DNA from: Hormiphora californensis
Lineage: Eukaryota; Animalia; Ctenophora
NCBI GenBank assembly: GCA_020137815.1
Contig: CM035360.1
Coordinates: 3,534,001-3,598,000, forward strand
DNA length: 64,000 bases
Direction of reading: 5' to 3'
Of the stretch, positions 1 through 64,000 are shown piece after piece (the first letter of the stretch is position 1; every line of letters begins with the position of its first letter). The position numbers were made by a program, and so were the translations under genes. The notes beneath the pieces are model-generated. The model did no database searches and had not been told where the DNA came from. It saw only the letters and a program-made list of their open reading frames with translations.

Positions 1-420
1 TTAATTAGATAATTGGATAATTAGGTTTGCGCATAACCGTTTTTTGGCTATATGGCTATAGCCACTTAGGAATGGAATAGAGACTTTTCACTGGCGCCAT
101 TTTGTAGGCAGTAGCCAAGTTATGGGGGGTCGACGTCGGACTTTTAAGCTCTATCTCCAACCGTTTAGCCGTTATTTGGCTTAAACGATGCTCAAAATCG
201 GGCTTTTTACCGTTTTTCGCTCATTTTGAGCATCGATTAAGCCAAATAACGGCTAAACGGTTGGAGATAGAGCTTAAAAGTCCGATGTAGACCCCCCATA
301 ACTTAGCTATTGCCTACAAAATGGCGCCAATGAAAAGTCTCTAAACCATTCCTAAGTGGCTATAGCCATATAGCCAAAAAACGGTTATGCGCAAACCTAA
401 TTATCCAATTATCTAATTAA
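1..420. repeat. Long imperfect palindrome (foldback/MITE-like), truncated by window start
   Basis: 1-~198 is the reverse complement of ~223-420 (ttaattagataattggataattagg... / ...cctaattatccaattatctaattaa) with few mismatches. Confidence 0.85.
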
Positions 421-710: not shown

Positions 711-1068
711 CTAAGGATGAGGTCATGCTAATAAATAATTCAAGATTTGTCACTGATGAATCACTATTCTTGATTCTCTGCGGGTGGCCACTTCAATTTA
801 ACTTCTCGTTTTAGAACTTTACCAAATTTGGTTCTTTACAACGCACTAACGATGTCATTGGATGCATTGATAACTACATAATGGCTGGACATGGTTATCA
901 TGAGAGATAGAGAGAAAGATGGAGAGAGTGTGTGTGAGGGTGATAAAAGTTACGTAGTTGAATCCGTTCAACATTTTTGTTCTAAAACGTTGGCCACCCG
1001 CTATGAATCAGGAATAGTGATTCTCGGGTGACAAATCTTAAATTATATCATCATGATCTCATTCTTAG
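711..1068. repeat. Degenerate inverted repeat (old MITE-like)
   Basis: ctaaggatgaggtcatg...gaatcactattcttgattctctgcgggtggcca (711-790) pairs with tggccacccgctatgaatcaggaatagtgattc...catgatctcattcttag (991-1068). Confidence 0.6.
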
Positions 1069-1273
1069 TGGTTAGAATTGTAGAGGGTGATCATCACGCG
1101 TACTATAACACTAGCACACATAACAATGTACATATGTGAGTGTTTGGTAACAAAGTTACCCCTCCCTTGCCAGCGCAAGGGGTTGTTTCGTAACCAATGT
1201 GAGTACAAGAGCGAACTTTGGATAAGATCTCTCTCCCGAGACTGTTAATCGACTAATATTTTCACCCCCTCAG

Positions 1274-3305
1274 GTGTTAAACGTGTCACGAAACTGTGTA
1301 AACCATTTCCCGGATTACTTTGAATACATGAACCTCCCAGTTGAGGACAGGGTATATGCTGATATATCACAACATTTCAACAAGGCACTACACTTCATAG
1401 GTAAGAAATAGGAGGGGGAGTTTTGAGGAGGATTGGGTAGTATTGAGACTTTAAAACGGAGTCCCCAGACTGGGGTAATTATGATAGTGGGCAGGTGAGT
1501 AGAACTAGATACTGATAGTGGTGTTCCAACAGTTGGGAACTGAGTTCCAACAGTTGCACTGGGAACTGTGTCTCTAGCTTTCTTGTCTGTCTGGGGGGAG
1601 GAAGAAGAAACATGTCAGGGGGGTGTCGTAAAAAATTCGACGGGGGTGGGGAAGGAGACGATCGAAAGAGAGGGGACGGGGAGAGAGACCATCGAGAGAG
1701 ATGGGGCGGAAGGGGTGGGAAGAGAGAAGACATAGTGAGGTACTTTGCTTTCCAAACTGTCATATTAAAATGATGGAATGATAATGATTGATGAAGAGGG
1801 AGATACTCACATCAAAACTGCGTCGTCTGTAAAGCCCGATTAAAGGTTGACAAGATACCTAAAACTTTTCGTATATCGTCTTATTTTGATTTATCATTAA
1901 TTTTCAGCATTTTTTCAGAATTTTTTGTCGGCTAGAAAAAATTCGAAATAGGGGGTCTACCGATATTGTCAGCACTGGTTTTACTGGGCACACTCACTGC
2001 GTCTCGCAAATTGAAATTCACGTTTCCGGTTCCTCAAAAGATAAAGACTTGATCTTGGTTGCGTTGGATTGGTCTCAATAAGACCTTTCCAACGCTACCA
2101 AAACGATTTCTGTATCTCATCAGGAACCGGAGATATTACGTTATCAATTTAAAAAAAGGCACACTCATTTGGCAGTAGACCCCCTATTTTGCACATATTT
2201 CTAGCCGACAAAAAATTCTGAAAAAATGCTAAAAATTAATGATAAATCAAAATAAGACGATATATGAAAAGTTTTAGGTATCTTGTCAACCTTTAAAATG
2301 TCTGGCGGGGGCAGAATGCAGATGCAGAGGCTACTTAGAAGTTATTTAAATTGGAATTACTGGAATTACCAGCAAAGAATGGAAGTTTCACCTCCATCCC
2401 GGGTCCTAACCCTGGTGAATATAATTTGGGGGGAAGAAAGATATATTCAAGAAGCTTCCTAACCTGACTTCCTAACCTGACTTCCTAGAACTACTAAAAA
2501 TAAAAAGAATGAAGGGTCCTCCGAACCCCATAATGTCTTAACCCGATAAATATATAATTCACCCTTCATATTCAATTCTGGGAAGCATTAATAAGATCGA
2601 GCGTTCATTTCCCCTCATGACTTCTTAATCCCTTTCTGCCCCATAACTATCTAACCCAATCCCCCTCTCTCTACCCAATAACTTCCTAACCCACTTTCTC
2701 TCTCCCAAGAATTTCTCCCTAATTTAACCTATTCCCCAGAACAAGTTGATCCTAATTTCTCCCCTTTTTCCCTAGAACAAGCACGAGGTGAAGGCTGCAG
2801 TATTCTGGTACATTGTAGAGCTGGAATTTCACGTAGCGCCACCGTTGTTATGGCATACCTTATCCAGTACTACAACAAAAACATGGAGGAGGCCTTCGAC
2901 TTTATTAAGTGAGTAAAAGTCACCTGATCAATTGACTATTCTGGAGTTATGAATTTGACTCATTCAAGTCACCTGAATCCTGATCTCGACATCTATTCTG
3001 GAGTCACTATTTTGTTTATTCTGGAGTATTGTTCATCATATATCCTAACATCCTCTCTCCTCCCCAGGATGAAGCACCCCTGCATTTCACCCAACTTCAA
3101 CTTCATGGGTCAGCTACTACAGTTCCAAAACGAGCGTGCCGCCAAGAAGAGTGATGGTAGCACCCCATCTTCCGACCATTGGGAGGCACAGGAAGAGGAA
3201 GATGAAGGAGAGGAGGAAGAAGAGGATAATGTCGTGTTATCCCTATCTGCCATCACCACTGCAACGCTACCACTCCTGCCAATAGAGAGGAATGATGAGA
3301 GATGA
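1274..3305 (+). CDS. Dual-specificity (MAP kinase) phosphatase, 3' part; 5' exons lie upstream of the window
   Basis: Phase-compatible GT-AG exons 1274-1400 (VLNVSRNCVNHFPDYFEYMNLPVED..ISQHFNKALHFI), 2776-2908 (ILVHCRAGISRSATVVMAYL, catalytic HCxxGxxRS) and 3068-3305 (ISPNFNFMGQLLQF plus an acidic tail). Confidence 0.93.
1844..2292. mobile_element. Non-autonomous DNA transposon, Kolobok-like, in a DUSP intron
   Basis: ~95-bp TIRs AGGTTGACAAGATACCTAAAAC... / ...GTTTTAGGTATCTTGTCAACCT, flanked by TTAA (1840-1843, 2293-2296). Purine (AG) termini with a TTAA target fit Kolobok better than piggyBac. Confidence 0.8.
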
Positions 3306-4048
3306 GGAGGAGGAGTGTCTGTCAGCAGCACCCAACCCTCCCGGAGGTGCTCGAGCATTTGCATTTGGTGAATGATGAGCTACAAAGGTGTAGGGTACTT
3401 GGAATTTGGTTGTTCTAACCCTCCTCCAAGGCAAGAATTTGGCTGCAGTGAGCGCTCTCAGATCTGTTATTTTGTGACTGATTTATTATTGGCTACTCAA
3501 TCGGCTGCACATTGTTTGAGACTTTTGTATATCAGCTCTCTTGTATTCAGTAATATATATCAGAAAGCTGATGGAAGGTTATCCGTGGAAAAAGAACGAT
3601 ATTTTGTTGTTTTCCTTCTTCTTCGCTCAGAGAGGTATAATATCTGTTTATGACGATTATCTATACACATTATCTATGACCCTAGCTAATATCTATATGT
3701 TATGTATTTGAGCTGCCTTGTTGTTTTTTGCTGTTATTGTGTGGGTGTGTGTGTGCGTGTGTGTGGATATTTGACTTCCTTGCATCATAACTAAGTGGCT
3801 TAACCAAAGCTGTTCTATATCGTTATCCCCCTGGGCTGAGTCGCCTAGTCGATCAGTGAGATATCCTTGAGTTGATAGTAGAACATTCTCGCTACTTTAG
3901 GTGGTAGTATGGAACAATTTCACTAATTTGTGTACTGCTTTACTACAACTGCAGTGTGGAGCGTGATTTCTCTGGCTTCTTTGGGTGGCGTGTTTGTTCG
4001 TTTGTACCTACTGTATATCGAGTAGGAGGTGGAGAGAGGGATGGGGAG

Positions 4049-4050
4049 AC

Positions 4051-4149
<99 letters not shown>

Positions 4150-4157
4150 AGGAGAGA
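4049..4157. repeat. (AG)n microsatellite
   Basis: Direct reading; it produces the spurious ER/SL-repeat ORFs. Confidence 0.95.
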
Positions 4158-5650
4158 GGCCTCTAGAGGAGCCCTGAATGAGATTAGCTTGACAGACAAA
4201 TTGTCTGACTCGGCAATGGAATGAGATATGAGCAGCAGCTTCTAGGTGTGGCTTCATTTTTCTAAGAACTCAAATATTCGCCACCATTGAAAGTAATGAC
4301 GGCCCTAGATTTAGAGATTACAGTGGGATGTGGTGTCACGGGTAGCATACTTTGTTAGGCTTTAGGTATTTAGATGTTTTGCTAATTGCTTGGTATAGGG
4401 CAACAAAAGGGTAAGGCATTGGTTTATATTGGCTTTGGGAACTTGTAATGAGTCTGAAGTCAGAGTATATGACATTGTCATTTGTGTGTGTGTGTGTGTG
4501 TGTGTGACTTGTGAGCGCGAAGTGTTGTCACTTGTGCGTTTCTATATCTGTTATACACAGGGCTTCCCCAATCTACTTTTAGCAGTTAGTAACTTGGTGA
4601 GTGAGAGAGTAAAAGAGAACGTGTGTGCCTTTGTATGTTGGGTGGGGTCTTAATAACTTTTGTACTTTTGGGAGTTTTCAAAACAGTGAAATATTGATTA
4701 TGCCATCACTACTTTCCATCCACAACTCGCATCTGTCGGTCGGGAAGTGACGCACTTGAAACTAATTTGTATTACTACAGATGTTTCAGTGTTTCTGAAA
4801 CTGTAACACTGTTTCCAGTGTTCCAGACTGACAATGCGAATTGTAGGGTGATGACACGATCCCTCGAATCTGTCACGGTTAGAGTGGATCAATGTGTAAA
4901 GAGTTATCTAACAGTAAAATATAACCCGCCTGTATACTTGCAATGACGAGAGATTTCATTATCATTTCTGTGTCCTAATGTATTATGTAAGTTGCAGTGA
5001 CTTCACGAAATAAGTACACCTATAAATGAAAAGTATGCCGTTAAAATAAAATAAGGTGACTCTGAGTAGCGATCTCAAGTCTCTCTTAGCCATTTCTTAT
5101 GACAGAAATTTTCTATTTTCTAGATATACATACATCAATGTACAGCAAAAAGAAACTCATCTAATATTTTCACAATCACACAATTGATATGTCTCCTGTA
5201 AAATATGTTTATTATTAGATGACCTATTAATCACGAGTTAAAAGTTCTATATTCTCCTCCTGGACCATTTATTTTATTTTCATGGTGTATTTAATTTTTA
5301 TTTTCACAACATTAAATATATTAAAACCTCGAGTTTGCTTGATTTTACTCTAGAAAGAAAGGGAGCTGGGAGTTAGATGCTCTCTTCAGCTACTTGGGTA
5401 TGGTGCAGGTGCCCCATTGTCATGTCTTACCACATGTAATGTGTGCACTAACCAGCTCAGCATCGGTGGTAGATCTACGGAACAAGATTTCCTAGCTTGT
5501 ATGGTGCCTGGTTTACGAATGGCGTGATGAATCGGGCGCTCTTGCCAGCGCTTGAAATGTTGCGCGCAAAAACATAACGCGCCGCGCGGCGGTTATTTGA
5601 ACGTGACATTTAAAATTTGCATTTTCGTGTTCAGCTGAGCTGGGTTTTTT

Positions 5651-8509: not shown

Positions 8510-9391
8510 ATGAAGGCCATCTGTGTGCTAAGGAATGATAAATCTACCTTTGGAACCATCAAGTTCTCTCAAGAGAAGGAAGGATCTCCCACCAGCATTG
8601 AGGTACACAGTTACTAGTTGTATCCGTCTCTTTTTATATCCGAGAGTATCGAAGGCTCGTGCGGCGGGCTAGTAGACAAATCTTTGTTACTTTTGTAACG
8701 TTTTACATCAATAATTGATAATCTTTCAGGTTGATATTGCTAACAGTGAACTGACCGAAGGGCAACATGGTTTCCATGTTCACCAGTTTGGGGATAACAC
8801 CAACGGATGTATCTCCGCTGGACCTCATTTCAACCCCTTCAAGAAGACACACGGTGGACCAACTGACGATGTAAGTTTTCAAAACTTGCTGGTTTAGTTT
8901 AGTCAACCCTCTGTCGCCTCCACGTGACCCGCCCTGGTAACACACCCCGACCTTTATTATGTGTCCTGGGGTATTGTCAGACAGCCATTGGGATCGGAAG
9001 TGGGCCGCAACAAAGGACTACTCGCTGCATTGTTGGAAGGGTAGTTCTGTACAATACAACTTGTATTGTTCAGAACTACCCTTGTATTATACAAGTCTGA
9101 ATTACAGATAATTACAGATAATTCCTTGTTTACTAAACTCCGTCACCACCACTGCAGGTTCGACATGTTGGTGATCTTGGTAACATTGCAGTTGACGGAT
9201 CGGGGAAGTGTGCCACCGTCCTGACCGACCCCCAGGTGTCCCTATTTGGGGAGCACTCTGTTCTTGGCCGTACCATGGTGCTTCACGCTGGTGTGGATGA
9301 CCAGGGGAAGGGAGGGAATGAGGAGAGCCTGAAAACTGGCAATGCTGGAGGGCGTGTTGCTTGTGGTATCATTGGAAAATGTGCCCAGTAG
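8510..9391 (+). CDS. SOD1: Cu/Zn superoxide dismutase (155 aa)
   Basis: Exons 8510-8602, 8730-8870 ([28 protein letters not shown]) and 9158-9391 ([46 protein letters not shown]). Metal ligands are present. Confidence 0.97.
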
Positions 9392-9543
9392 ATAGTTTTT
9401 TGTATCCCACCCCGTACCTGAAGGAAGTTCAACCTCTCCTCCAGGTAGGGGGTGATCAGTGTCTACTAGAACAGAGTGACCCTTAGTTGACCTGGCCCCT
9501 TCCCCTTTAAATTATTATTTCCTTTATAAAAGAGGCCCTCTTA

Positions 9544-12500
9544 TTTAGGTGCCGGCAGGCACCTCCGACCCGAAGAAAACAGAAAAAACGAAGAAAAAAA
9601 AAATTTTGCCCCTGCACCAAATCCAAAAAGCCGGCCCTATTTAGGTGCCGGCAGGCACCTCCGACCCGAAGAAAACAGAAAAAACGAAAGAAAAAAAATT
9701 TTGCCCCTGCACCAAATCCAAAAAGCCGGCCCTATTTAGGTGCCGGCAGGCACCTCCGACCCGAAGAAAACAGAAAAAACGAAAGAAAAAAAAATTTTGC
9801 CCCTGCACCAAATCCAAAAAGCCGGCCCTATATATACAAACGTAGGTCTTTTTTTCGGGGGGGGGGGGGGGGGGGGGCAAATTTCAGGCAGCGATTGTGG
9901 CCACATTTTTTGAGATATCGACCTGAAATTTTGTAGGCGTGTTCTAGTAGTATAACTACGTGTCATAACGTGGCCGGATTTTTGATTTTTTGCCTAATTA
10001 ATTAATTATAGGTAATTAAAAAGTAGCCCCTGCACCGTGCCCCTGAGCATGGCGTGTTCTGTCCCCTGGGCATTGCCCCTGAGCCGAAATTATCTCCCGA
10101 TCTGCTTGAAATATCGACTTGAAACTTTGTAGGAATGCTCTTCAAGCATAAAAAATGATCTACAAAAAGTTAGAATAGTCAAAATTAAGTAATCAATGAG
10201 TTATAGGCATGCAAAAATGGACATTTCTGGTGCCCCTGAATTTTGCCCCCGAGCATTTGAAAAAACTGCCCCTGGGCAATTTTAAAATTCAAATTGTGGC
10301 CACACTGTTTGACATATCGATCTAAAACTTTGTAGGCATGTTCTAGTGGTATAACTAAGAGTCACCACGGAGCCTGATTTTTGATTTTTTACTTAATTAA
10401 TTAATTATAAGCAATTAAAATTTTAAAATTGCCCCCGCACTAACAAAAGTGGCCCAGGGGCACCTGAGTCGCAATTATCTCCCGATCTGCTTGAAATATC
10501 GACTTGAAACTTTGTAGGAATGCTCTTCAAGCATATAGAAAGGTCTACATAAGGTGGGAATATTCAAAATTAAGTAATCAATGAGTTATAAGCAATTAAA
10601 AAATGGACATTTTTATGGTGCCCCTGAGCATTGCCCCTGAGCATTTGAAAATATTTTCCGTTCTGCTATAAATATCGACTTGAAACTTTGTAGGAATGCT
10701 CTTCAAGCATATAGAAAGGTCTACAAAAAGTGGGAATATTCAAAATTAACTATCCAATTAATTATAAGCAATTAAAAAAATGTGCAGTGGCAGTGCAGGG
10801 GCAAAAAAATAAAGCATATATATGGCGGGAAAATATTTTGGCGGGAAACCGAAAAAGCCCAATAAGCCAAGAACGGGGTGGGGCCAAGGTCTGGCCCACT
10901 AGCTTTTGATCACCTCATCGAGCCCGATCGAACGCGACCAATGTCGACCTCCCACGACGACCTAAACCCCTAATCCCAAGTGGTGCCAGCCAACCGCCAG
11001 CCAAACGGAAAAATCTAGTGATCCTCTATCAGCTGGTATCAAAATCTAAGCTCTAAGTGACCAGGAACTGGCATTATTAGTGCTAATTGGCGATAACGTC
11101 ATAAATCACATAATTACGACTAATTAGTGAACCGGGGGTGGTAGAGACCTGTGGGATGGTACTTTGGACTTTTTATAGAGTCCCTAATCATATCAGAAAG
11201 TCAAATGTAAAATTCCAGACCCAACTTCCCACAACCGACCCTACTATAATAAACAGGCCGCCGCGCATCAAAAAATATTTTAACAGCCTGAAGGTTGCTG
11301 TTTCGACGAATCTCCCAACTTCGGGTCGGACGAGGGGAAGCTTGCCTTTTGCGATCATATATACAAACGTAGGTCTTTTTTTCGGGGGGGGGGGGGGGCA
11401 AATTTCAGGCAGCGATTGTGGCCACATTTTTTGAGATATCGACCTGAAATTTTGTAGGCGTGTTCTAGTAGTATAACTACGTGTCATAACGTGGCCGGAT
11501 TTTTGATTTTTTGCCTAATTAATTAATTATAGGTAATTAAAAAGTAGCCCCTGCACCGTGCCCCTGAGCATGGGGTGTTCTGTCCCCTGGGCATTGCCCC
11601 TGAGCCGAAATTATCTCCCGATCTGCTTGAAATATCGACTTGAAACTTTGTAGGAATGCTCTTCAAGCATAAAAAATGATCTACAAAAAGTTAGAATAGT
11701 CAAAATTAAGTAATCAATGAGTTATAGGCATGCAAAAATGGACATTTCTGGTGCCCCTGAATTTTGCCCCCGAGCATTTGAAAAAACTGCCCCTGGGCAA
11801 TTTTAAAATTCAAATTGTGGCCACACTGTTTGACATATCGATCTAAAACTTTGTAGGCATGTTCTAGTGGTATAACTAAGAGTCACCACGGAGCCTGATT
11901 TTTGATTTTTTACTTAATTAATTAATTATAAGCAATTAAAATTTTAAAATTGCCCCCGCACTAACAAAAGTGGCCCAGGGGCACCTGAGTCGCAATTATC
12001 TCCCGATCTGCTTGAAATATCGACTTGAAACTTTGTAGGAATGCTCTTCAAGCATATAGAAAGGTCTACATAAGGTGGGAATATTCAAAATTAAGTAATC
12101 AATGAGTTATAAGCAATTAAAAAATGGACATTTTTATGGTGCCCCTGAGCATTGCCCCTGAGCATTTGAAAATATTTTCCGTTCTGCTATAAATATCGAC
12201 TTGAAACTTTGTAGGAATGCTCTTCAAGCATATAGAAAGGTCTACAAAAAGTGGGAATATTCAAAATTAACTATCCAATTAATTATAAGCAATTAAAAAA
12301 ATGTGCAGTGGCAGTGCAGGGGCAAAAAAATAAAGCATATATATGGCGGGAAAATATTTTGGCGGGAAACCGAAAAAGCCCAATAAGCCAAGAACGGGGT
12401 GGGGCCAAGGTCTGGCCCACTAGCTTTTGATCACCTCATCGAGCCCGATCGAACGCGACCAATGTCGACCTCCCACGACGACCTAAACCCCTAATCCCAA

Positions 12501-15500
12501 GTGGTGCCAGCCAACCGCCAGCCAAACGGAAAAATCTAGTGATCCTCTATCAGCTGGTATCAAAATCTAAGCTCTAAGTGACCAGGAACTGGCATTATTA
12601 GTGCTAATTGGCGATAACGTCATAAATCACATAATTACGACTAATTAGTGAACCGGGGGTGGTAGAGACCTGTGGGATGGTACTTTGGACTTTTTATAGA
12701 GTCCCTAATCATATCAGAAAGTCAAATGTAAAATTCCAGACCCAACTTCCCACAACCGACCCTACTATAATAAACAGGCCGCCGCGCATCAAAAAATATT
12801 TTAACAGCCTGAAGGTTGCTGTTTCGACGAATCTCCCAACTTCGGGTCGGACGAGGGGAAGCTTGCCTTTTGCGATCATATATACAAACGTAGGTCTTTT
12901 TTTCGGGGGGGGGGGGGGGGGGCAAATTTCAGGCAGCGATTGTGGCCACATTTTTTGAGATATCGACCTGAAATTTTGTAGGCGTGTTCTAGTAGTATAA
13001 CTACGTGTCATAACGTGGCCGGATTTTTGATTTTTTGCCTAATTAATTAATTATAGGTAATTAAAAAGTAGCCCCTGCACCGTGCCCCTGAGCATGGGGT
13101 GTTCTGTCCCCTGGGCATTGCCCCTGAGCCGAAATTATCTCCCGATCTGCTTGAAATATCGACTTGAAACTTTGTAGGAATGCTCTTCAAGCATAAAAAA
13201 TGATCTACAAAAAGTTAGAATAGTCAAAATTAAGTAATCAATGAGTTATAGGCATGCAAAAATGGACATTTCTGGTGCCCCTGAATTTTGCCCCCGAGCA
13301 TTTGAAAAAACTGCCCCTGGGCAATTTTAAAATTCAAATTGTGGCCACACTGTTTGACATATCGATCTAAAACTTTGTAGGCATGTTCTAGTGGTATAAC
13401 TAAGAGTCACCACGGAGCCTGATTTTTGATTTTTTACTTAATTAATTAATTATAAGCAATTAAAATTTTAAAATTGCCCCCGCACTAACAAAAGTGGCCC
13501 AGGGGCACCTGAGTCGCAATTATCTCCCGATCTGCTTGAAATATCGACTTGAAACTTTGTAGGAATGCTCTTCAAGCATATAGAAAGGTCTACAAAAGGT
13601 GGGAATATTCAAAATTAAGTAATCAATGAGTTATAAGCAATTAAAAAATGGACATTTTTATGGTGCCCCTGAGCATTGCCCATGAGCATTTGAAAATATT
13701 TTCCGTTCTGCTATAAATATCGACTTGAAACTTTGTAGGAATGCTCTTCAAGCATATAGAAAGGTCTACAAAAAGTGGGAATATTCAAAATTGATTATCA
13801 AATTAATTATAAGCAATTAAAAAAATGTGCAGTGGCAGTGCAGGGGCAAAAAAATAAAGCATATGGTCGTGTTTCATATTGATTGGTCGTTAAACATTTT
13901 GAAAAATGAGTTAATGTTACGTTTACTCAAAAATGCGGCACTTAATCTAGTAAAAATCAGTTGATATTCCAACCCTAGTAGTAAAAGTGTCTTTTGATCA
14001 CTTGTATGTACTTTTAATTGAATTTACTCATAAATTGCGGCTCTGGGGACCAACTTTGCTAAACCTGGCACCAATCAAACAGAGTAAAAATTATTGTCAC
14101 AATTTTCTGTGTAAAATACAGAAAAATGATACATATTTCTTATCCATAGCTAGGAGTAAGCGAATTACTCATATTGTGCGGTGTAAAAGGTGGTTGAATT
14201 GATGGAATTTTTGGATTGCATTTAACACCCCTCTTTGGTTCCGATTTATGAGTAAAGTGATACTAAAATGTTGCAAATAAAGTGAACAACCATATTAGCT
14301 AAAGAAAACTACAAAATTTTACTCAAATTGTGCGGTGCGGCTAAAAATAGCACAAAACTTTAACCTGCTATAGCACCGCACTAAATGAGTAAACAGATCT
14401 GAAAGTGGTTGGATACAGGTCATATGGCCAATATCTAATGTATCCACCATGTTTTCAATCTGTTTACTCAAAAATTGCGGCTCTATTGACTGTCGGTTTA
14501 AATCAACCATATTTTCAGGTCTCGTACCGCACAATATGAGTAACTGAGAGTACCAGTTATCGCCTTATCATACTCATAATTGTTCAAAGGAGATATGTGC
14601 AAAAAATTAAACATCAATTTACTCATTTTACACCTTAGGAGTAAGATTTTCGGTAGAAAATAGCTGTGTGCCGCACAATATGAGTAAATTTTTCTCAAAA
14701 CCTAGCTAATCCTTTGACGAAAAAGTATTTCTAATTATTCCTGAAATTTCAAAAGTTTAATCACAACTAGCAAACTATGAGAGCCCTGTGCCGCAACTTT
14801 GAACCGCACTGATGTTTTAGCCTATATCTCTGAAAGCCGTTGAATAAGAGTAACCGTTTCTTCACTAAAGTATAGTTCAAAGTATTATGCACTTATTGCA
14901 GTATATGAGTAACCAGCCAAGCCTTTTGGTTGATTCGCAATTCTCTTCTGAAAATTTTTGGTCAAACGACCAATCAATATGAAACACGACCATATATATG
15001 GCGGGAAAATATTTTGGCGGGAAACCGAAAAAGCCCAATAAGCCAAGAACGGGGTGGGGCCAAGGTCTGGCCCACTAGCTTTTGATCACCTCATCGAGCC
15101 CGATCGAACGCGACCAATGTCGACCTCCCACGACGACCTAAACCCCTAATCCCACGTGGTGCCAGCCAACCGCCAGCCAAACGGAAAAATCTAGTGATCT
15201 TCTATCAGCTGGTATCAAAATCTAAGCTCTAAGTGACCAGGAACTGGCATTATTAGTGCTAATTGGCGATAACGTCATAAATCACATAATTATGACTAAT
15301 TAGTGAACCGGGGGTGGTAGAGACCTGTGGGATGGTACTTTGGACTTTTTATAGAGTCCCTAATCATATCAGAAAGTCAAATTTAAAATTCCAGACCCAA
15401 CTTCCCACAACCGACCCTACTATAATAAACAGGCCGCCGCGCATCAAAAAATATTTTAACAGCCTGAAGGTTGCTGTTTCGACGAATCTCCCAACTTCGG

Positions 15501-15533
15501 GTCGGACGAGGGGAAGCTTGCCTTTTGCGATCA
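9544..15533. mobile_element. Composite repeat of three ~96-bp left units (S) and three ~1.52-kb units (L); non-autonomous element with subterminal inverted repeats and a terminal hairpin (Helentron/Crypton-like)
   Basis: S units: 9544-9639, 9640-9734, 9735-9830. L units: 9831-11357, 11358-12878, 12879-15533 (the last is interrupted). S begins with hairpin AGGTGCC-ggca-GGCACCT then TCCGACCCGAAG. L ends with CTTCGGGTCGGA ~27 nt from its end. No TSD visible. Confidence 0.85.
13865..14991. mobile_element. Non-autonomous TIR element inserted in the third L unit
   Basis: 27-bp TIR GGTCGTGTTTCATATTGATTGGTCGTT / AACGACCAATCAATATGAAACACGACC. Empty sites in L1 and L2 (aaagcatatatatggcggg) show an ATAT (or TA) duplication. 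Confidence 0.9.
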
Positions 15534-15690
15534 TATATTTATCTTCGTAAGAAGTGGAGGATTGAAGTAGAGTGTATTTCAGAAGAAAGTGTGTATAAGA
15601 TGTGTGAATTGTGTTAGTAGGGGACACTAGCGTGGTACGGGCAATGAGTGGCCAATGCTCTGCAGAGCTCTGACAAGTATAAATTTTTGT

Positions 15691-16514
15691 GGGGGGGGGC
15701 CAACGAATTTTTTATATATTTCCTTAATTTTGGAATTTTTTATATATATATAAAAATATATAAAAATATATAAAAATATATAAAAATATATAAAAATATA
15801 TAAAGTTATATAAATAATATATAAAAATATATAAAAATATATAAAATAAACCCTTTTTTCACCCCTTTTACTTTCAAAAAAGGGGATTATTTCCATCTAT
15901 TGTTCACTTGAATATGTTTCATAGAGTTAATTTAAGTGTTTGAGAGTGTGATAGCTGTTTTACATAATTGAGAATGTGTTCAAAAGTGAATTATGCACTG
16001 TCAAAAGTAGAACTGGTGAAGAGAGGTTCCGGCCTAATAATATCTACCAGTTTTGATGTGATTTCAATCATTTTTTGTATGTTGATCCGTGCAGATGTAC
16101 TAGAACTGGTGAAGAGAGGTTGGGATCGCGAAACTAAAAAAAACAAATCATTTTTGACGTCATTTTGACGTCATGACGTTATTGACGCGACGTCACGATG
16201 TTACAAACGTCACATTGATGACGGAAAATCATCAGGATTATCTAGATGAAGATGCTGACCAAGTTTGAGATCAATTGAATGATATTTGATCCCGCTATGG
16301 CGAAAAACAGCTTTCTGTTTTCACACTTTCGGCACAATTTTTTATATATTTTTATATATTTTTTATATATTTTTATATATTTTTATATATTCATATGTAT
16401 TTTTATATATTTTTATATATTTTATATATATATAAAAAATTATGTTTTTTTTTCCAAAAAAAAGGTATATAAAATATATAAAAATATATAAAAAATGAGC
16501 GTTGGCCCCCCCCC
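15691..16514. mobile_element. Poly-G/poly-C capped TIR element with (ATATAAAAAT)n 10-bp subterminal arrays
   Basis: Ends GGGGGGGGGCCAACG / CGTTGGCCCCCCCCC, with 8-bp TSD ATTTTTGT (15683-15690, 16515-16522). Confidence 0.85.
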
Positions 16515-16962
16515 ATTTTTGTACAGTGTACACTATACACTGTATAGTGTACACTGTACACCGACTGCGTTCCTCACCGAAAAAAAAAGAATTTTATAAG
16601 CAATATGATTATAAATGTGCAGCTCTGTTTTTGTGAGTACCACGCTAGTGTCCTCTACTAGTTGTTGTTGATGTGACTGGCTCATGATGCTATATTTTCC
16701 AGAGAAAATAATACCCTTTATAGCTTTTTGTTGATATTCCATATAACTTAAATGTTGTTTAATTAGAAACACGACTATTGTCTAGATCAAATAAAGGAAT
16801 TTACACACTTTAATACAAGTTACAAAACCACGGTCAATACAAAAGTATACAACTCAAGAAGTGAAAATATATACAGTTCTCCGGATAGAAAGACAAATTA
16901 GAATAAAGAAATAACACTCGGTACTCATATACATTAGAATTTAAATTCTCATGGACGCACTG

Positions 16963-25437: not shown

Positions 25438-25721
25438 TTTTCATACAAGTGTGGCCCTCATTTTGAAAGAAACGTAGTTGTGTGAAAGATCTGTTTTCTA
25501 ATTTATTTACGAAAAATCAAAATTTCTTAAGCGTATTTTCTTCTGACCCCAAAACCTAGTTCTCCCAGCTCCACACATACCATCTAAAAAAAAATTTTTA
25601 GTACCCATTCTCCCCCATCGCTCATCTGCGAACTACCCCCAAGCCGCAAGCGCCCTGGTACCAGGTACCTCTAATCCCCCACCGCTTATTCTACCTCCCT
25701 CCCACGCAGCGTGCCGTCATC

Positions 25722-28186
25722 ATGTTGGAAGCTGCGGAGATGTTCGAGAAGCATATTTACAAGGAGGCTCTAGAGCAGGCCAGCAGCTTCAATACCCGCC
25801 TCCTTGTTGAGAGACAATCCCGATTACCCTTCCTTGATACCCAGACCAACATCGCTCAGGTGAGAACTGGATAGAAACTAAAATCTTGAAGTTATAATCT
25901 ACTGTTTTATGAGTTGTCATGACGTGTTCTAAACCCGTTCTAATCTACAGGTTGATTGTAAATTATGGAGGAACAAGTGTGAGCGGGTGGAACCCTTGCA
26001 GAATGGTCAGGAATACTCGTACCAGGTATGACATTAGCTGTACTCATACACGATGAAAGTAGTGTGCATATGGTTATTTCTAATTCTTTGAACAATCGTG
26101 CCTAGATACGAAGAAAAAAAACATCGATCTACTGCTAATCATGATATATATCATTATATTAGGTTCGGTACTGGAAGAAGTTGCCTAAAGTAAAGAAAAC
26201 TATCCGGGATGAGACGACGGGGGAGGTGAAAGAAACTGAAGAACCAGCCCAACCTACCACCGTGACGGGTGGTGCAGTTGTGTTTAAACAAGAGTTAATA
26301 CCCGATGAGAGTATGGATACGTCACCCAGTGAGCCGACACCGGAGGAGCTCAGTCCCTCTAGTGATGATTATGATGTGAGTATGGGAGGTTCATGCCATA
26401 ACTCATCACTATCCCAATTATATATCACTACTTTTTTCAAGTGCATTGTGTATTATTTTTCAGTCATTTATACTTCTACATGCCCTTAACGCTCTGTTTT
26501 TCCCCTCAGTATTATGCCGATCGGAAGCGCAAGAGACAATCCCGAAACAGCCGCCGTACCAAAGTAGACAACCTGAGACGGGGATCTCGTTCTCGTAAAA
26601 GCAGCGTGATAGGAACAAGGAATAGCGGCCGGAAAGTAGAGGATGTTGACCCTGAACCAGCACCATTAACCACTGAACCTGCAGCAAAACAACCTGATAC
26701 TGCCGGCGTTAAAGTTGAGGAGTCAGACTCTACAGCTGCTCCTACTCCTGATGCTTCCATAAAAACCGAACCGGGACAAGCAGCACCGACTAAGGGCAAG
26801 AAGAGTGGGGTGTGCGATGTATGTGGAGGAGATAACAGGTGAATTGTTACCTCATTGTGACCTCCTTTACCCCACCACTTACTTGAATTTTGAATTTCAG
26901 AGACCCCTGATCCCATCACATATTTGCATTCTCCTGACTGTCTCACTAACTCATCCCCCCTCTCAGTAAAAACAAGAACACCGGTCTAGCTGAAGAGATG
27001 GTATCCTGTGTGGATTGCGGCCGATCTGCACACCCCTCCTGCCTGCAATTCGAGGGTCAACTGGCGGAGACTGTAAAGCAGTACAACTGGCAGTGTTTGG
27101 AGTGCAAGAGCTGTAGTATTTGTGGTAAGAAAATGCGATCATGTGCCTGTAAGAAGGAGTAGAGAGAGAGAGAGAGAGAGTAAGGGAATGAGGGAAAGAG
27201 AAAGATAGAGAGAGAGAAAAAGAGAGGAAGAGAGAAATTGTAGAGATATCGCATTTGAAGAAGAGTTCAAGAGAGTTTTGAGGAAAAAAGTTCGATGTTC
27301 AAAGAATGAACTTTAGGTTATAAACTTTAGATTTTGAGTGTTTTGTTTTTGTTTGTATGTTTGCCGCTGAAAAAGTTAGGGCACAAGTTAAATATTATGA
27401 ATTTACGGATTTACCCTTTGATTTACAGGCAAAGAGTCTTAATTAATTATTGATAACTGTGGGAATTTCATTATTATTATTAATCAATTATATCCAATTA
27501 CACACTTGGTATGCGAGATTATATAATCGCCTCAGAATTTTTAGCCGACTCTATAATGATCGGTCTGTAAAATATTACTGTTTATATAATATATACATCG
27601 TGTGTATGTGTGTTTTGTCACTGGTTTATATTTACTCAGTTCTTATATTACGCTGTGGTAAAAACACTGCTGTTTTATTTCTCCAACTCGGTGGCTCTCT
27701 GACACTAATGTGAGTGGACCGCATCGGCTAATCGCAGATTAGCTGTATCTTCCATCTCTCCTCCCTACCAACACGATCAGAAAGGGGAGGTCCTCTCTCT
27801 TTTTCATAATCTGAGGGAGGATTAGGTCTGTCCGATTCTATAACGCGACTACCATCCACACTTCTAGAGATATCATCTCTTTCTCTCCTTGGTAGTGAGA
27901 GAGAGATGGTATCTCTAACCGATCCCTCCTTGATATATCATCTCTCTACTTGATTCTTGAAAGAAAGAGAGAGAGATGGTATCTCGATCCCTCCTCTCGT
28001 CAAGTTGCCACCGGGGCATCTTTGCCCTCTCCTCACACCCTCCCTCATCCCTCAGGAACGTCTGATAACGATGACCAGTTGTTATTCTGCGATGAGTGTG
28101 ACCGAGGATTCCACATGTACTGTCTGAAACCAAAGATTGAACGGCCACCCGAGGGTAGTTGGGTTTGTCATATGTGCAAGAAATGA
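25722..28186 (+). CDS. DPF2: DPF/d4-family BAF45 subunit (Requiem N domain + double PHD), co-orthologous to DPF1/2/3
   Basis: Exons 25722-25859 ([34 protein letters not shown]), 25951-26025, 26163-26375, 26510-26838, 26967-27124 ([30 protein letters not shown]) and 28056-28186 ([33 protein letters not shown]). Confidence 0.93.
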
Positions 28187-28749
28187 GGAGGGAGAAAATT
28201 AGGAGGGAGAGTGAGACAGAAAGACAAGTTTATTAACTAAATTTTAATTTACCGAAACCCCCGGATTTATTATCTAATGCATTATTATGGAGTGAGTGTC
28301 ACCGAAAGATAGATCTTTTATTTTATGATACAACTGGACCATTAGCAATCATCTAAACTATTTCTTTATTTTTCCTGCACCCATCTGCACCTGACCCTTT
28401 CTTGCATTGTTAAGAGAGTTAGAGAGGGTGAACCAGCTGTAGATAGCGACTGATTTCACAAAAGAAAACCCGACCAATAATAAAGCAATAATAAAGCACT
28501 TTAGGCAACCCGAATATGACCAGAAAAACAGAGTGTGTTAATTTTCTTATTATATATTACATGTTTATTTTGTTCGTCATCATATAAATTTATTACGACT
28601 TTAATCTTATTATACACGAAGAGAGAGATGTTTCTTTTATAATCTGTAATACCACCAAATATATATGATCAATAAAATCACTATTCAACCAGATCTATTT
28701 GATATGTATATCTTCAATCTTCCCACCTCTCTTCTCACACATATAGTGC

Positions 28750-63575
<34,826 letters not shown>

Positions 63576-63669: not shown

Positions 63670-64000
63670 GGGGGGGGGGGTGACACGTAACACTTTGTAA
63701 CACTTTGTTCGGGGCCTGGCAAGGCCCCCCGACCCGAATATAACCCAAACTCAACCCATCCCCCCTAAAACATCCCCCCTAAAACTAAGACAACGGGGCC
63801 GAGCCGACAGGCCCTTAATACCAGATGAAAAAAAAACCATTCGGGGCCTGGCAAGGCCCCCCGACCCGAATATAACCCAAACTCAATCCATCCCCCCTAA
63901 AACATCCCCCCTAAAACTAAAACAACGGGGCCGAGCCGACAGGCCCTTAATACCAGATGAAAAAAAAACCATAAAACCATAACCATAACCATAACCATAG
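63670..64000. mobile_element. Left end of a poly-G capped element, interrupted by a 2x132-bp duplicated hairpin/CCGACCCGAA end
   Basis: G-run plus (GTAACACTTT)x2, then tandem 63708-63839 / 63840-63971 beginning TTCGGGGCC-tggcaa-GGCCCCCCGACCCGAA, then (ACCATA)n. Confidence 0.65.

What the first reader, a model, noticed from the sequence alone, without database searches (positions are those of the whole stretch)
9544..15533. Matryoshka element: S-S-S-L-L-L architecture implies repeated insertion into its own internal target site
Seen: three ~96-bp S units followed by three ~1.52-kb L units. One S+L forms a complete element: terminal hairpin AGGTGCC-ggca-GGCACCT with TCCGACCCGAAG at one end and CTTCGGGTCGGA near the other. 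Head-to-tail amplification would give SLSLSL, whereas S[S[SL]L]L is exactly the product of inserting twice at the S/L junction (ccggcccta^tatatacaaa). The reconstructed genomic target is similar (ccctctta^tatattt) and has no TSD. Nesting predicts the outer pair is oldest. Consistent with this, L3 has about nine private substitutions plus a secondary transposon, while L1 and L2 differ by about one substitution, and S1 differs from S2/S3 (cgaaga vs cgaaaga). Known: subterminal inverted repeats, a hairpin and no TSD occur in Helentrons/Helitron2 and Cryptons. Inference: the element carries its own TA-rich landing site, a self-made safe harbour.
Basis: partly seen in the sequence, partly recalled or inferred. 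Interest (0 to 1): 0.82.

Follow-up and report, generated by a model that had tools for sequence, protein, structure and literature searches.

The report
Transposon nested twice inside itself
Three near-identical copies of a small, very abundant non-coding transposon sit one inside another next to a superoxide dismutase gene, likely because this rolling-circle-type element jumps into short TA runs and carries such a run 96 bases inside its own end, a habit already proposed for fungal relatives.

Summary
The S-S-S-L-L-L layout is real in the window. S+L is one 1.62-kb non-coding element with a 7-bp terminal hairpin and an offset 12-bp inverted repeat, most like Helitron2/Helentron (HLE2) elements; no autonomous partner could be sought. 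Logan contigs of two samples show a very high-copy family, S and L ends joined in short derivatives, S-S junctions in 3 contigs of one run, and same-orientation self-insertions at the element's second TA run and beside its end. A related family at 63708 also has a doubled hairpin end. Nesting is supported. The dating argument is weaker than claimed: 2 of L3's 9 'private' changes are the family majority, 3 are probably one event, and site 10053 hints that L2 is a recombinant, so the third level may be a duplication. 'Safe harbour' is unsupported: TA runs are no denser in the element than elsewhere in the window. L-L junctions and S/L copy equality were not seen or testable, and the contig has a noisy duplicated stretch elsewhere. 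Self-insertion was proposed for Fusarium FoHeli; this scan noted such nests before (21 notes, at least 6 genomes, unchecked). Modest interest.

The parts
9544..9639 (.). S1: hairpin end of the outer copy (hairpin 9547-9564, inverted repeat 9564-9575)
   Evidence: polarity of the element not determined
9640..9734 (.). S2: hairpin end of the middle copy (hairpin 9643-9660, inverted repeat 9660-9671)
9735..11357 (.). S3+L1: the only uninterrupted element, 1623 bp; hairpin 9738-9755, inverted repeats 9755-9766 and 11319-11330 (20 and 27 nt from the ends)
   Evidence: its two ends are joined in short derivatives in 4 of 4 runs
9829..9836 (.). Site A: TATATATA run at the S/L junction, the empty internal target
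   Evidence: S-tail joined to S-head in 3 contigs of run X2 (loose end behind 9831)
9894..10779 (.). Degenerate internal repeats of L (about 390-bp and 130-160-bp matches, 79-90% alike), like HINE central repeats
10816..10823 (.). Site B: ATATATAT run, the element's only other TA run of 6 nt or more; target of two self-insertion junction types in run X2 and of the secondary transposon in L3
   Evidence: (table 5c)
11358..12878 (.). L2: body and far end of the middle copy; shares G at the 10053 position with L3 and all nine other variable sites with L1 (possible recombinant)
12879..15533 (.). L3: body and far end of the outer copy (inverted repeat 15495-15506)
13864..14992 (.). Secondary non-coding transposon, 1129 bp, 28-bp perfect terminal inverted repeats, TA duplicated, at site B of L3 (Tc1/mariner-like by its TA duplication; class name recalled)
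63708..63971 (.). Related family: two tandem 132-bp hairpin ends (7-bp stem, GGCA loop, then CCGACCCGAA), followed by its empty internal site; cut off by the window end
   Evidence: 4 of 7 stem pairs changed on both sides, none broken
9158..9391 (+). Context: last exon of a Cu/Zn superoxide dismutase gene; the nest begins 152 bp after its stop codon
   Evidence: (PF00080, E 8.7e-21)

Best explanation
The array is three copies of one 1.62-kb non-coding element, likely a non-autonomous rolling-circle (HLE2, Helitron2/Helentron-like) transposon, that are likely nested because new copies were put in, always the same way round, at a TA run 96 bp inside the hairpin end of a resident copy. Shown: the unit structure, the end motifs, that S and L are the two ends of one high-copy element, that flanks of other copies are AT-rich and end in TA, and that the family has inserted at both of its own TA runs and beside its own end. 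Inferred: mobilisation in trans by a Rep-helicase that reads the hairpin and inverted repeat and cuts after AT at both ends and in the target; S1...L3 is the resident copy and came from a different sub-lineage than the inner units; the inner block S2 S3 L1 L2 came from one young source, either as two insertions from that source or as a ready-made S[SL]L composite. The internal site is an ordinary target that the element happens to hold; nothing shows that it is kept for the purpose.
For: Junction table fits insertion at one point for 7 of 7 junctions. Head-to-end joints 9764/9765 to 11325/11326/11329 in 4 of 4 runs; S/L joint in 2 of 4 runs. S-tail to S-head in 3 contigs of X2; the two S|S junctions of this locus are identical over the 22 nt shown on each side, so further variants probably come from other loci. 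Self-insertion at site B in two junction forms (depth 47.6, 32.6) and next to the far end (43.9) in X2. Loose ends before the element are AT-rich and end ...ATA/ATAA before the shared TA in X1, X5, X6 (9-12 contigs each, agreement 0.41-0.45). S1 and L3 both hold states found elsewhere in the family that the inner units lack, so at least two family members contributed. A second family with the same end geometry has a doubled hairpin end. Layout matches FoHeli3-5 (one hairpin, other repeat 20-40 bp in) and the NAT^A target resembles FoHeli1/2 (PMC5148889 section 6); self-insertion model in its section 16.
Against: No L-L junction among the rows shown (24 of 532 loose ends, 24 of 769), so S and L counts could not be compared. 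All self-insertion rows come from one run (X2), whose sample may be the assembly's source. Position 10053 groups L2 with L3 while 10979 and 11207 group L2 with L1, which pure nesting explains only with a back-change or conversion. Random TA-run targeting expects at most 0.0003 double nests under assumed genome sizes and copy numbers, so an extra bias or a copying step is needed, and Helraiser shows no local hopping in 701 events (PMC4778049 section 10). Target is not T^T, the far repeat is 27 nt in and has no hairpin (z +0.68). No transposase was found or testable. The contig holds a noisy 5.8-kb duplicate elsewhere (451 gap openings).
Confidence: 0.6

Rival explanations
1. One true nested insertion (S[SL]L), then unequal exchange or slippage between the resulting direct repeats added one L and, separately, one S.
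For: L2 = L3-like at 10053 and L1-like from 10550 on, which is the product of a crossover between misaligned L1 and L3; no C>G row at 10053, and an X2 contig of depth 3524 stops at 10052; S2/S3 differ only in A-run length; L1/L2 share alleles at about 1% or less of family depth.
Against: Needs two separate events that happen to keep S and L equal; rests on one site; the allele tables are incomplete (the 10979 row is missing), so the family state at 10053 is not known.
Confidence: 0.24
2. One level is an assembly error: the locus is S2L2 (or two alleles merged) and the assembler repeated the near-identical units.
For: L1/L2 and S2/S3 are nearly identical; the same contig has an unpolished, deletion-rich duplicate at 32758-37976 (79.6%, 451 gap openings); no contig spans the array.
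Against: An error would have to repeat a 95-bp and a 1.5-kb unit at separate places with exact junctions; sequence across the array is clean; L1 and L2 differ at a non-homopolymer site; S-S junctions exist in short-read contigs.
Confidence: 0.08
3. The element is a tyrosine-recombinase (Crypton-like) unit that integrates as a circle by crossover at a short AT overlap; nesting as above.
For: The same AT stands at both ends and in the target; no terminal inverted repeats.
Against: PMC3212892 (passages) gives 4-6-bp direct repeats for fungal/oomycete Cryptons and no terminal repeats for animal ones; 'hairpin' and 'palindrom' occur 0 times there; hairpin directly beside a 12-bp offset repeat is the HLE2 layout (PMC11417382).
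Confidence: 0.05
4. No nesting: a single S+L copy whose S and L parts each amplified in tandem.
For: Gives the same order of units.
Against: Both repeat units would have to break at the same base, which is also the family's target motif; S1 and L3 hold family states that the inner units lack; self-insertions are seen at other sites.
Confidence: 0.03

Closest known systems
FoHeli (Helitron2-type, 'HLE2-reverse') elements of Fusarium oxysporum; Chellapan et al., PMC5148889 (passages and sections 6, 10, 16 read; supplements not seen)
   Same: Offset 12-16-bp inverted repeats; FoHeli3-5 have one terminal hairpin and the other repeat 20-40 bp from the end; FoHeli1/2 insert at TNAT^A; short (<200 bp; 31-85 nt) repeated termini explained by self-insertion; one copy inserted 2 bp from another.
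   Different: FoHeli cases have several 5' termini with one 3' terminus; here both halves are kept in equal number at one base. Animal host, TA-run target, no autonomous copy in hand.
HINE / DINE-1 non-autonomous Helentrons (PMC4067079, PMC7492417; passages)
   Same: Non-coding, 11-15-bp subterminal inverted repeats, palindrome after one of them, central repeats, very high copy number.
   Different: They insert in TT/T-rich sites and the 5' repeat is 2-4 nt from the end (mite HINEs); here the target is a TA run and that repeat is 27 nt in, with no clear partner repeat or microsatellite beside it.
Helitron2 (Bao and Jurka, PMC3627910; passages) and HLE2 as defined in HELIANO (PMC11417382; passages)
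   Same: Repeat 20-30 bp from one end directly before a hairpin; compensatory changes between related families keep the stem.
   Different: 5' repeat 0-2 bp from the end with a second hairpin is not seen; T^T target is not seen.
Helraiser / Helitron1 (PMC4778049; passages and section 10)
   Same: A^T insertion in AT-rich sequence fits these junctions.
   Different: No 5'-TC/CTRR-3' pair as such, and Helitron1 ends have no inverted repeats; Helraiser shows no local hopping.

Membership tests
HLE2 (Helitron2/Helentron) | Short offset inverted repeats (8-15 bp; 12-17 in HELIANO) | tested here: met
   12 bp perfect; 3 of 20,000 shuffles
HLE2 (Helitron2/Helentron) | Stem-loop directly outside one repeat, about 20-30 bp from that end | tested here: met
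   7-bp stem, -7.7 kcal/mol, z -2.23 (5 of 200 shuffles); repeat 20 nt from the end; 4 of 7 pairs compensated in the related family, whose own fold is not significant (24 of 200)
Helitron2 sensu Bao and Jurka / mite HINE | Other repeat 0-4 bp from its end, forming a second hairpin | tested here: not met
   27 nt from the end; fold z +0.68, 145 of 200 shuffles as good
Helentron / HLE2 (usual case) | Insertion between T and T | tested here: not met
   Junctions read A^T or AT^A in TA-rich sequence
FoHeli-type HLE2 ('HLE2-reverse') | One terminal hairpin, far repeat 20-40 bp from the end | tested here: met
   against PMC5148889 section 6
FoHeli-type HLE2 ('HLE2-reverse') | TNAT^A target (FoHeli1/2) | tested here: inconclusive
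   Host site TTAT^A fits; site A CTAT, site B GCAT and ATAT fit NAT only
All Helitron-like elements | No target-site duplication | tested here: inconclusive
   A shared AT at each junction fits either reading; no empty host allele was seen
All Helitron-like elements | Autonomous partner with Rep-helicase and the same ends | not testable with these tools
   No genome held; end patterns gave 0 matches in metagenome contigs and viral contigs; element has no ORF over 141 aa
HINE / DINE-1 | Central tandem-like repeats | tested here: met
   9894-10779, 79-90% alike
Helitron1 | 5'-TC and CTRR-3' ends, no inverted repeats | tested here: not met
   Minus strand starts TG and ends CCTAAA; 12-bp inverted repeats present
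Crypton | 4-6-bp terminal direct repeats | tested here: not met
   Only a 2-bp AT overlap; PMC3212892 passages
Crypton | Tyrosine recombinase partner | not testable with these tools
   No genome held
DDE cut-and-paste MITE | Terminal inverted repeats at the very ends | tested here: not met
   Ends are not inverted; best match between the 60-nt ends is the internal 12-mer

The most novel reading that the evidence does not exclude
The transposase is drawn to resident copies: it docks on the hairpin and inverted repeat of an element already in the genome and puts the incoming strand, in fixed orientation, into the first AT^A site inside that end (96 bp in for this family, 132 bp for the related one, whose site is not a TA run). 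Self-nesting would then be an end-tethered targeting rule of these rolling-circle elements, not chance, and nests such as this would record insertion order.
Probability: 0.3. Interest if true: 0.6.

Novelty: new variant of a known kind. Interest (0 to 1): 0.33.

Why it matters
How Helitron2/Helentron elements choose targets, and which end starts replication, is not settled in the papers read. A symmetric nest with a TA-run target, two related families and same-orientation self-insertions makes a self-targeting bias countable in one genome. It also matters for annotation: such nests look like two unrelated tandem repeats. If the bias proves to be plain TA-run preference in a very abundant family, the locus is ordinary.

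Tried and rejected
Whole genome: none held, so no locus-by-locus S/L count, family tree or partner search. Exact 31-nt end pattern and a degenerate two-family pattern: 0 matches in metagenome contigs and viral contigs. Rfam on 9400-15700: 0 matches. ORFs in the array: 36 of 50 aa or more, longest 141 aa, which has no Pfam match (the other 35 were not scanned). Second lay of contigs on S3+L1 alone to count S-S against L-L joints: neither appeared as a joint row; S-S appeared as a loose end, L-L not among the rows shown. Empty host allele and single-copy depth were not examined. Copy number (about 80-130 long copies) is a rough ratio of X2 contig depths (3494-4180 against 32-54 for rare joints), not a measurement; genome sizes of 100-300 Mb are assumed. 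A second hairpin at the far end: rejected. 'Safe harbour' by enrichment of target sites: rejected. Dating by 9 private changes: rejected as stated. Replitron identity: no terminal direct repeats (PMC10288648 passages). The host taxon was not tested here; 'comb jelly' comes from earlier notes. Literature searches for the exact pattern (listings only unless a paper is cited as read) gave FoHeli as the only close precedent; two searches gave mechanism papers and nothing relevant on IS3EU. PMC11934779 was seen as abstract and outline only.
Full report
Observation. The window is eukaryotic and gene-dense; the array starts 152 bp after the stop codon of a Cu/Zn superoxide dismutase gene. Earlier notes on this genome call the host a comb jelly; I did not test that. 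The layout is as described: S1 9544-9639, S2 9640-9734, S3 9735-9830, L1 9831-11357, L2 11358-12878, L3 12879-15533. Each S starts with TTT, a 7-bp stem with a GGCA loop and TCCGACCCGAAG; each L carries the reverse complement of that 12-mer 27 nt before its end. The 12-bp match arose in 3 of 20,000 shuffles; the hairpin folds at -7.7 kcal/mol with 5 of 200 shuffles as good. All seven junctions fit one element inserted at one point, and S3|L1 is the empty site. The same AT stands on both sides of every junction, so A^T, T^A and a 2-bp AT duplication cannot be told apart; 'no TSD' is therefore open. The array is non-coding. L3 holds a 1129-bp transposon with 28-bp terminal inverted repeats and a duplicated TA.

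Is S+L one mobile element? Yes. No genome was held, so I laid Logan contigs of 4 of 19 listed runs (two samples, two studies; one sample may be the assembly's source) on S3+L1. Summed depths of about 700 to 930,000 per bin mark a very abundant family. Short derivatives join the S head to the L end (9764/9765 to 11325-11329) in 4 of 4 runs, and the S/L joint is listed in 2 of 4. Loose ends before the element in X1, X5 and X6 are unrelated AT-rich flanks ending in ATA or ATAA before a shared TA (9-12 contigs each, agreement 0.41-0.45). A rough depth ratio in X2 (3494-4180 for conserved contigs, 32-54 for rare joints) suggests about 80-130 long copies; this is an estimate, not a count.

Does it insert into itself? 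The element holds exactly two alternating TA runs of 6 nt or more: site A at 9829-9836 (the S/L junction) and site B at 10816-10823. In run X2, 3 contigs continue from the S tail into the S head, two junction forms put an element start at site B (depth 47.6 and 32.6), and one puts it 3 letters after the far end (43.9). Site B is also where the secondary transposon sits in L3. All of these, the two S|S junctions here and the doubled end of a second family are in the same orientation, although site A is palindromic; the only opposite-strand joint shown (X5, 11112/11193) is not at an end. At 63708-63971 a related family has two tandem 132-bp ends of the same geometry, with 4 of 7 stem pairs changed on both sides and none broken, followed by its own empty site; its far end lies outside the window.

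Order and age. Two of them (C at 10979, T at 11207, L1 numbering) are the family majority, 98.8-100% of depth in 4 of 4 runs, so these are changes shared by L1 and L2. Three more lie within 8 bp and create a short inverted repeat, probably one event, and one matches L's internal paralogous repeats. S1 differs by an A-tract shift of a kind seen in contigs of 4 of 4 runs. So the outer pair comes from another sub-lineage than the inner block, which supports at least one real nested insertion but says little about age. The inner units share rare alleles, so they have one source. Position 10053 cuts across this: L2 and L3 have G, L1 has C, no C>G row is listed, and an X2 contig stops at 10052. That is the pattern of a crossover between misaligned L1 and L3, but it rests on one site and on incomplete tables.

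Chance or bias? TA runs are no denser in the element (1.23/kb) than in the rest of the window (1.28/kb; 0.91/kb without an AT-rich element), and derivatives without either site are common, so there is no sign of a maintained 'safe harbour'. With assumed genome sizes of 100-300 Mb, random use of TA runs expects 0.02-0.19 single nests at site A from long copies alone (up to about 3 if 1000-3000 short copies are counted) but at most 0.0003 double nests of long copies. One nest can be chance; two levels need a bias towards resident copies, a travelling S[SL]L composite, or a duplication. Helraiser showed no local hopping in 701 events (PMC4778049 section 10), which speaks against simple re-insertion next to the donor, though that is a Helitron1 in cultured cells. 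A caution on the assembly: 32758-37976 is a deletion-rich 79.6% copy of 25545-31228 with 451 gap openings, like an unpolished long read.

Mechanism and family. It works like an HLE2 rolling-circle element: offset 12-bp repeats, a hairpin directly outside one of them, central repeats, no coding sequence (PMC11417382, PMC3627910, PMC4067079, PMC7492417; passages). It fails two features of the canonical forms (T^T target; second repeat 0-4 bp from its end with a hairpin), so I do not file it as a HINE or as Helitron2 in the strict sense. Its layout matches FoHeli3-5 and its NAT^A target resembles FoHeli1/2 (PMC5148889 section 6). Which end is 5' is undetermined: S is the 3' end in the canonical layout and the 5' end in the reverse one. 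The Rep-helicase partner could not be sought. Cryptons fit poorly (PMC3212892 passages).

Novelty. FoHeli elements carry 31-85-nt repeated termini that the authors explain by self-insertion (sections 10 and 16; their supplements, which list the cases, were not seen). My searches showed no paper on a symmetric same-base nest with a TA-run target, but the library lacks most subscription papers. This scan has 21 notes on similar nests in at least 6 genomes (8 shown); they are unchecked and not used as support. Verdict: real feature, nesting likely (0.60 for two nested levels, 0.24 for one level plus duplication, 0.08 assembly error), new variant of a known kind, interest 0.33.

Noticed in passing
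window 63708-64000: Second family with the same hairpin + CCGACCCGAA geometry, two tandem 132-bp ends (2 differences), then an (AACCAT)n tract; its host junction has G, not A, before the start. Cut off by the window end.
   Followed up: partly
window 32758-37976 vs 25545-31228: Deletion-rich 79.6% duplicate (451 gap openings in 5.8 kb), like an unpolished long read left in the contig; further inverted copies around 29426-30617 / 38957-40160.
   Followed up: partly
window 13864-14992: 1129-bp non-coding transposon with 28-bp terminal inverted repeats, TA duplication and internal repeats/inverted repeat (14370-14486), sitting at the same TA run that the host family uses.
   Followed up: partly
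window 9735-11357, contigs of runs X1, X2, X5, X6: Very short derivatives (about 60-75 bp) made only of the two ends, at depths up to 852; they would define the minimal cis elements.
   Followed up: no
window 9738, run X2: One contig has the reverse-complement repeat directly before the hairpin, i.e. a fold-back at the hairpin end; one contig only, could be a library artefact or a hairpin intermediate.
   Followed up: no
window 8512-9391 and 9544: The nest lies 152 bp after the stop of a Cu/Zn SOD gene with no AATAAA in between, so it may interrupt the 3' UTR; expression not checked.
   Followed up: no
window 15690-16515: AT-rich element with long imperfect inverted repeats of (ATATATAAAA)n units, 150 bp right of the nest.
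   Followed up: no
window 1-420, 58854-59438, 42051-42676 / 46341-46975: Several long fold-back or inverted-repeat elements elsewhere in the window.
   Followed up: no
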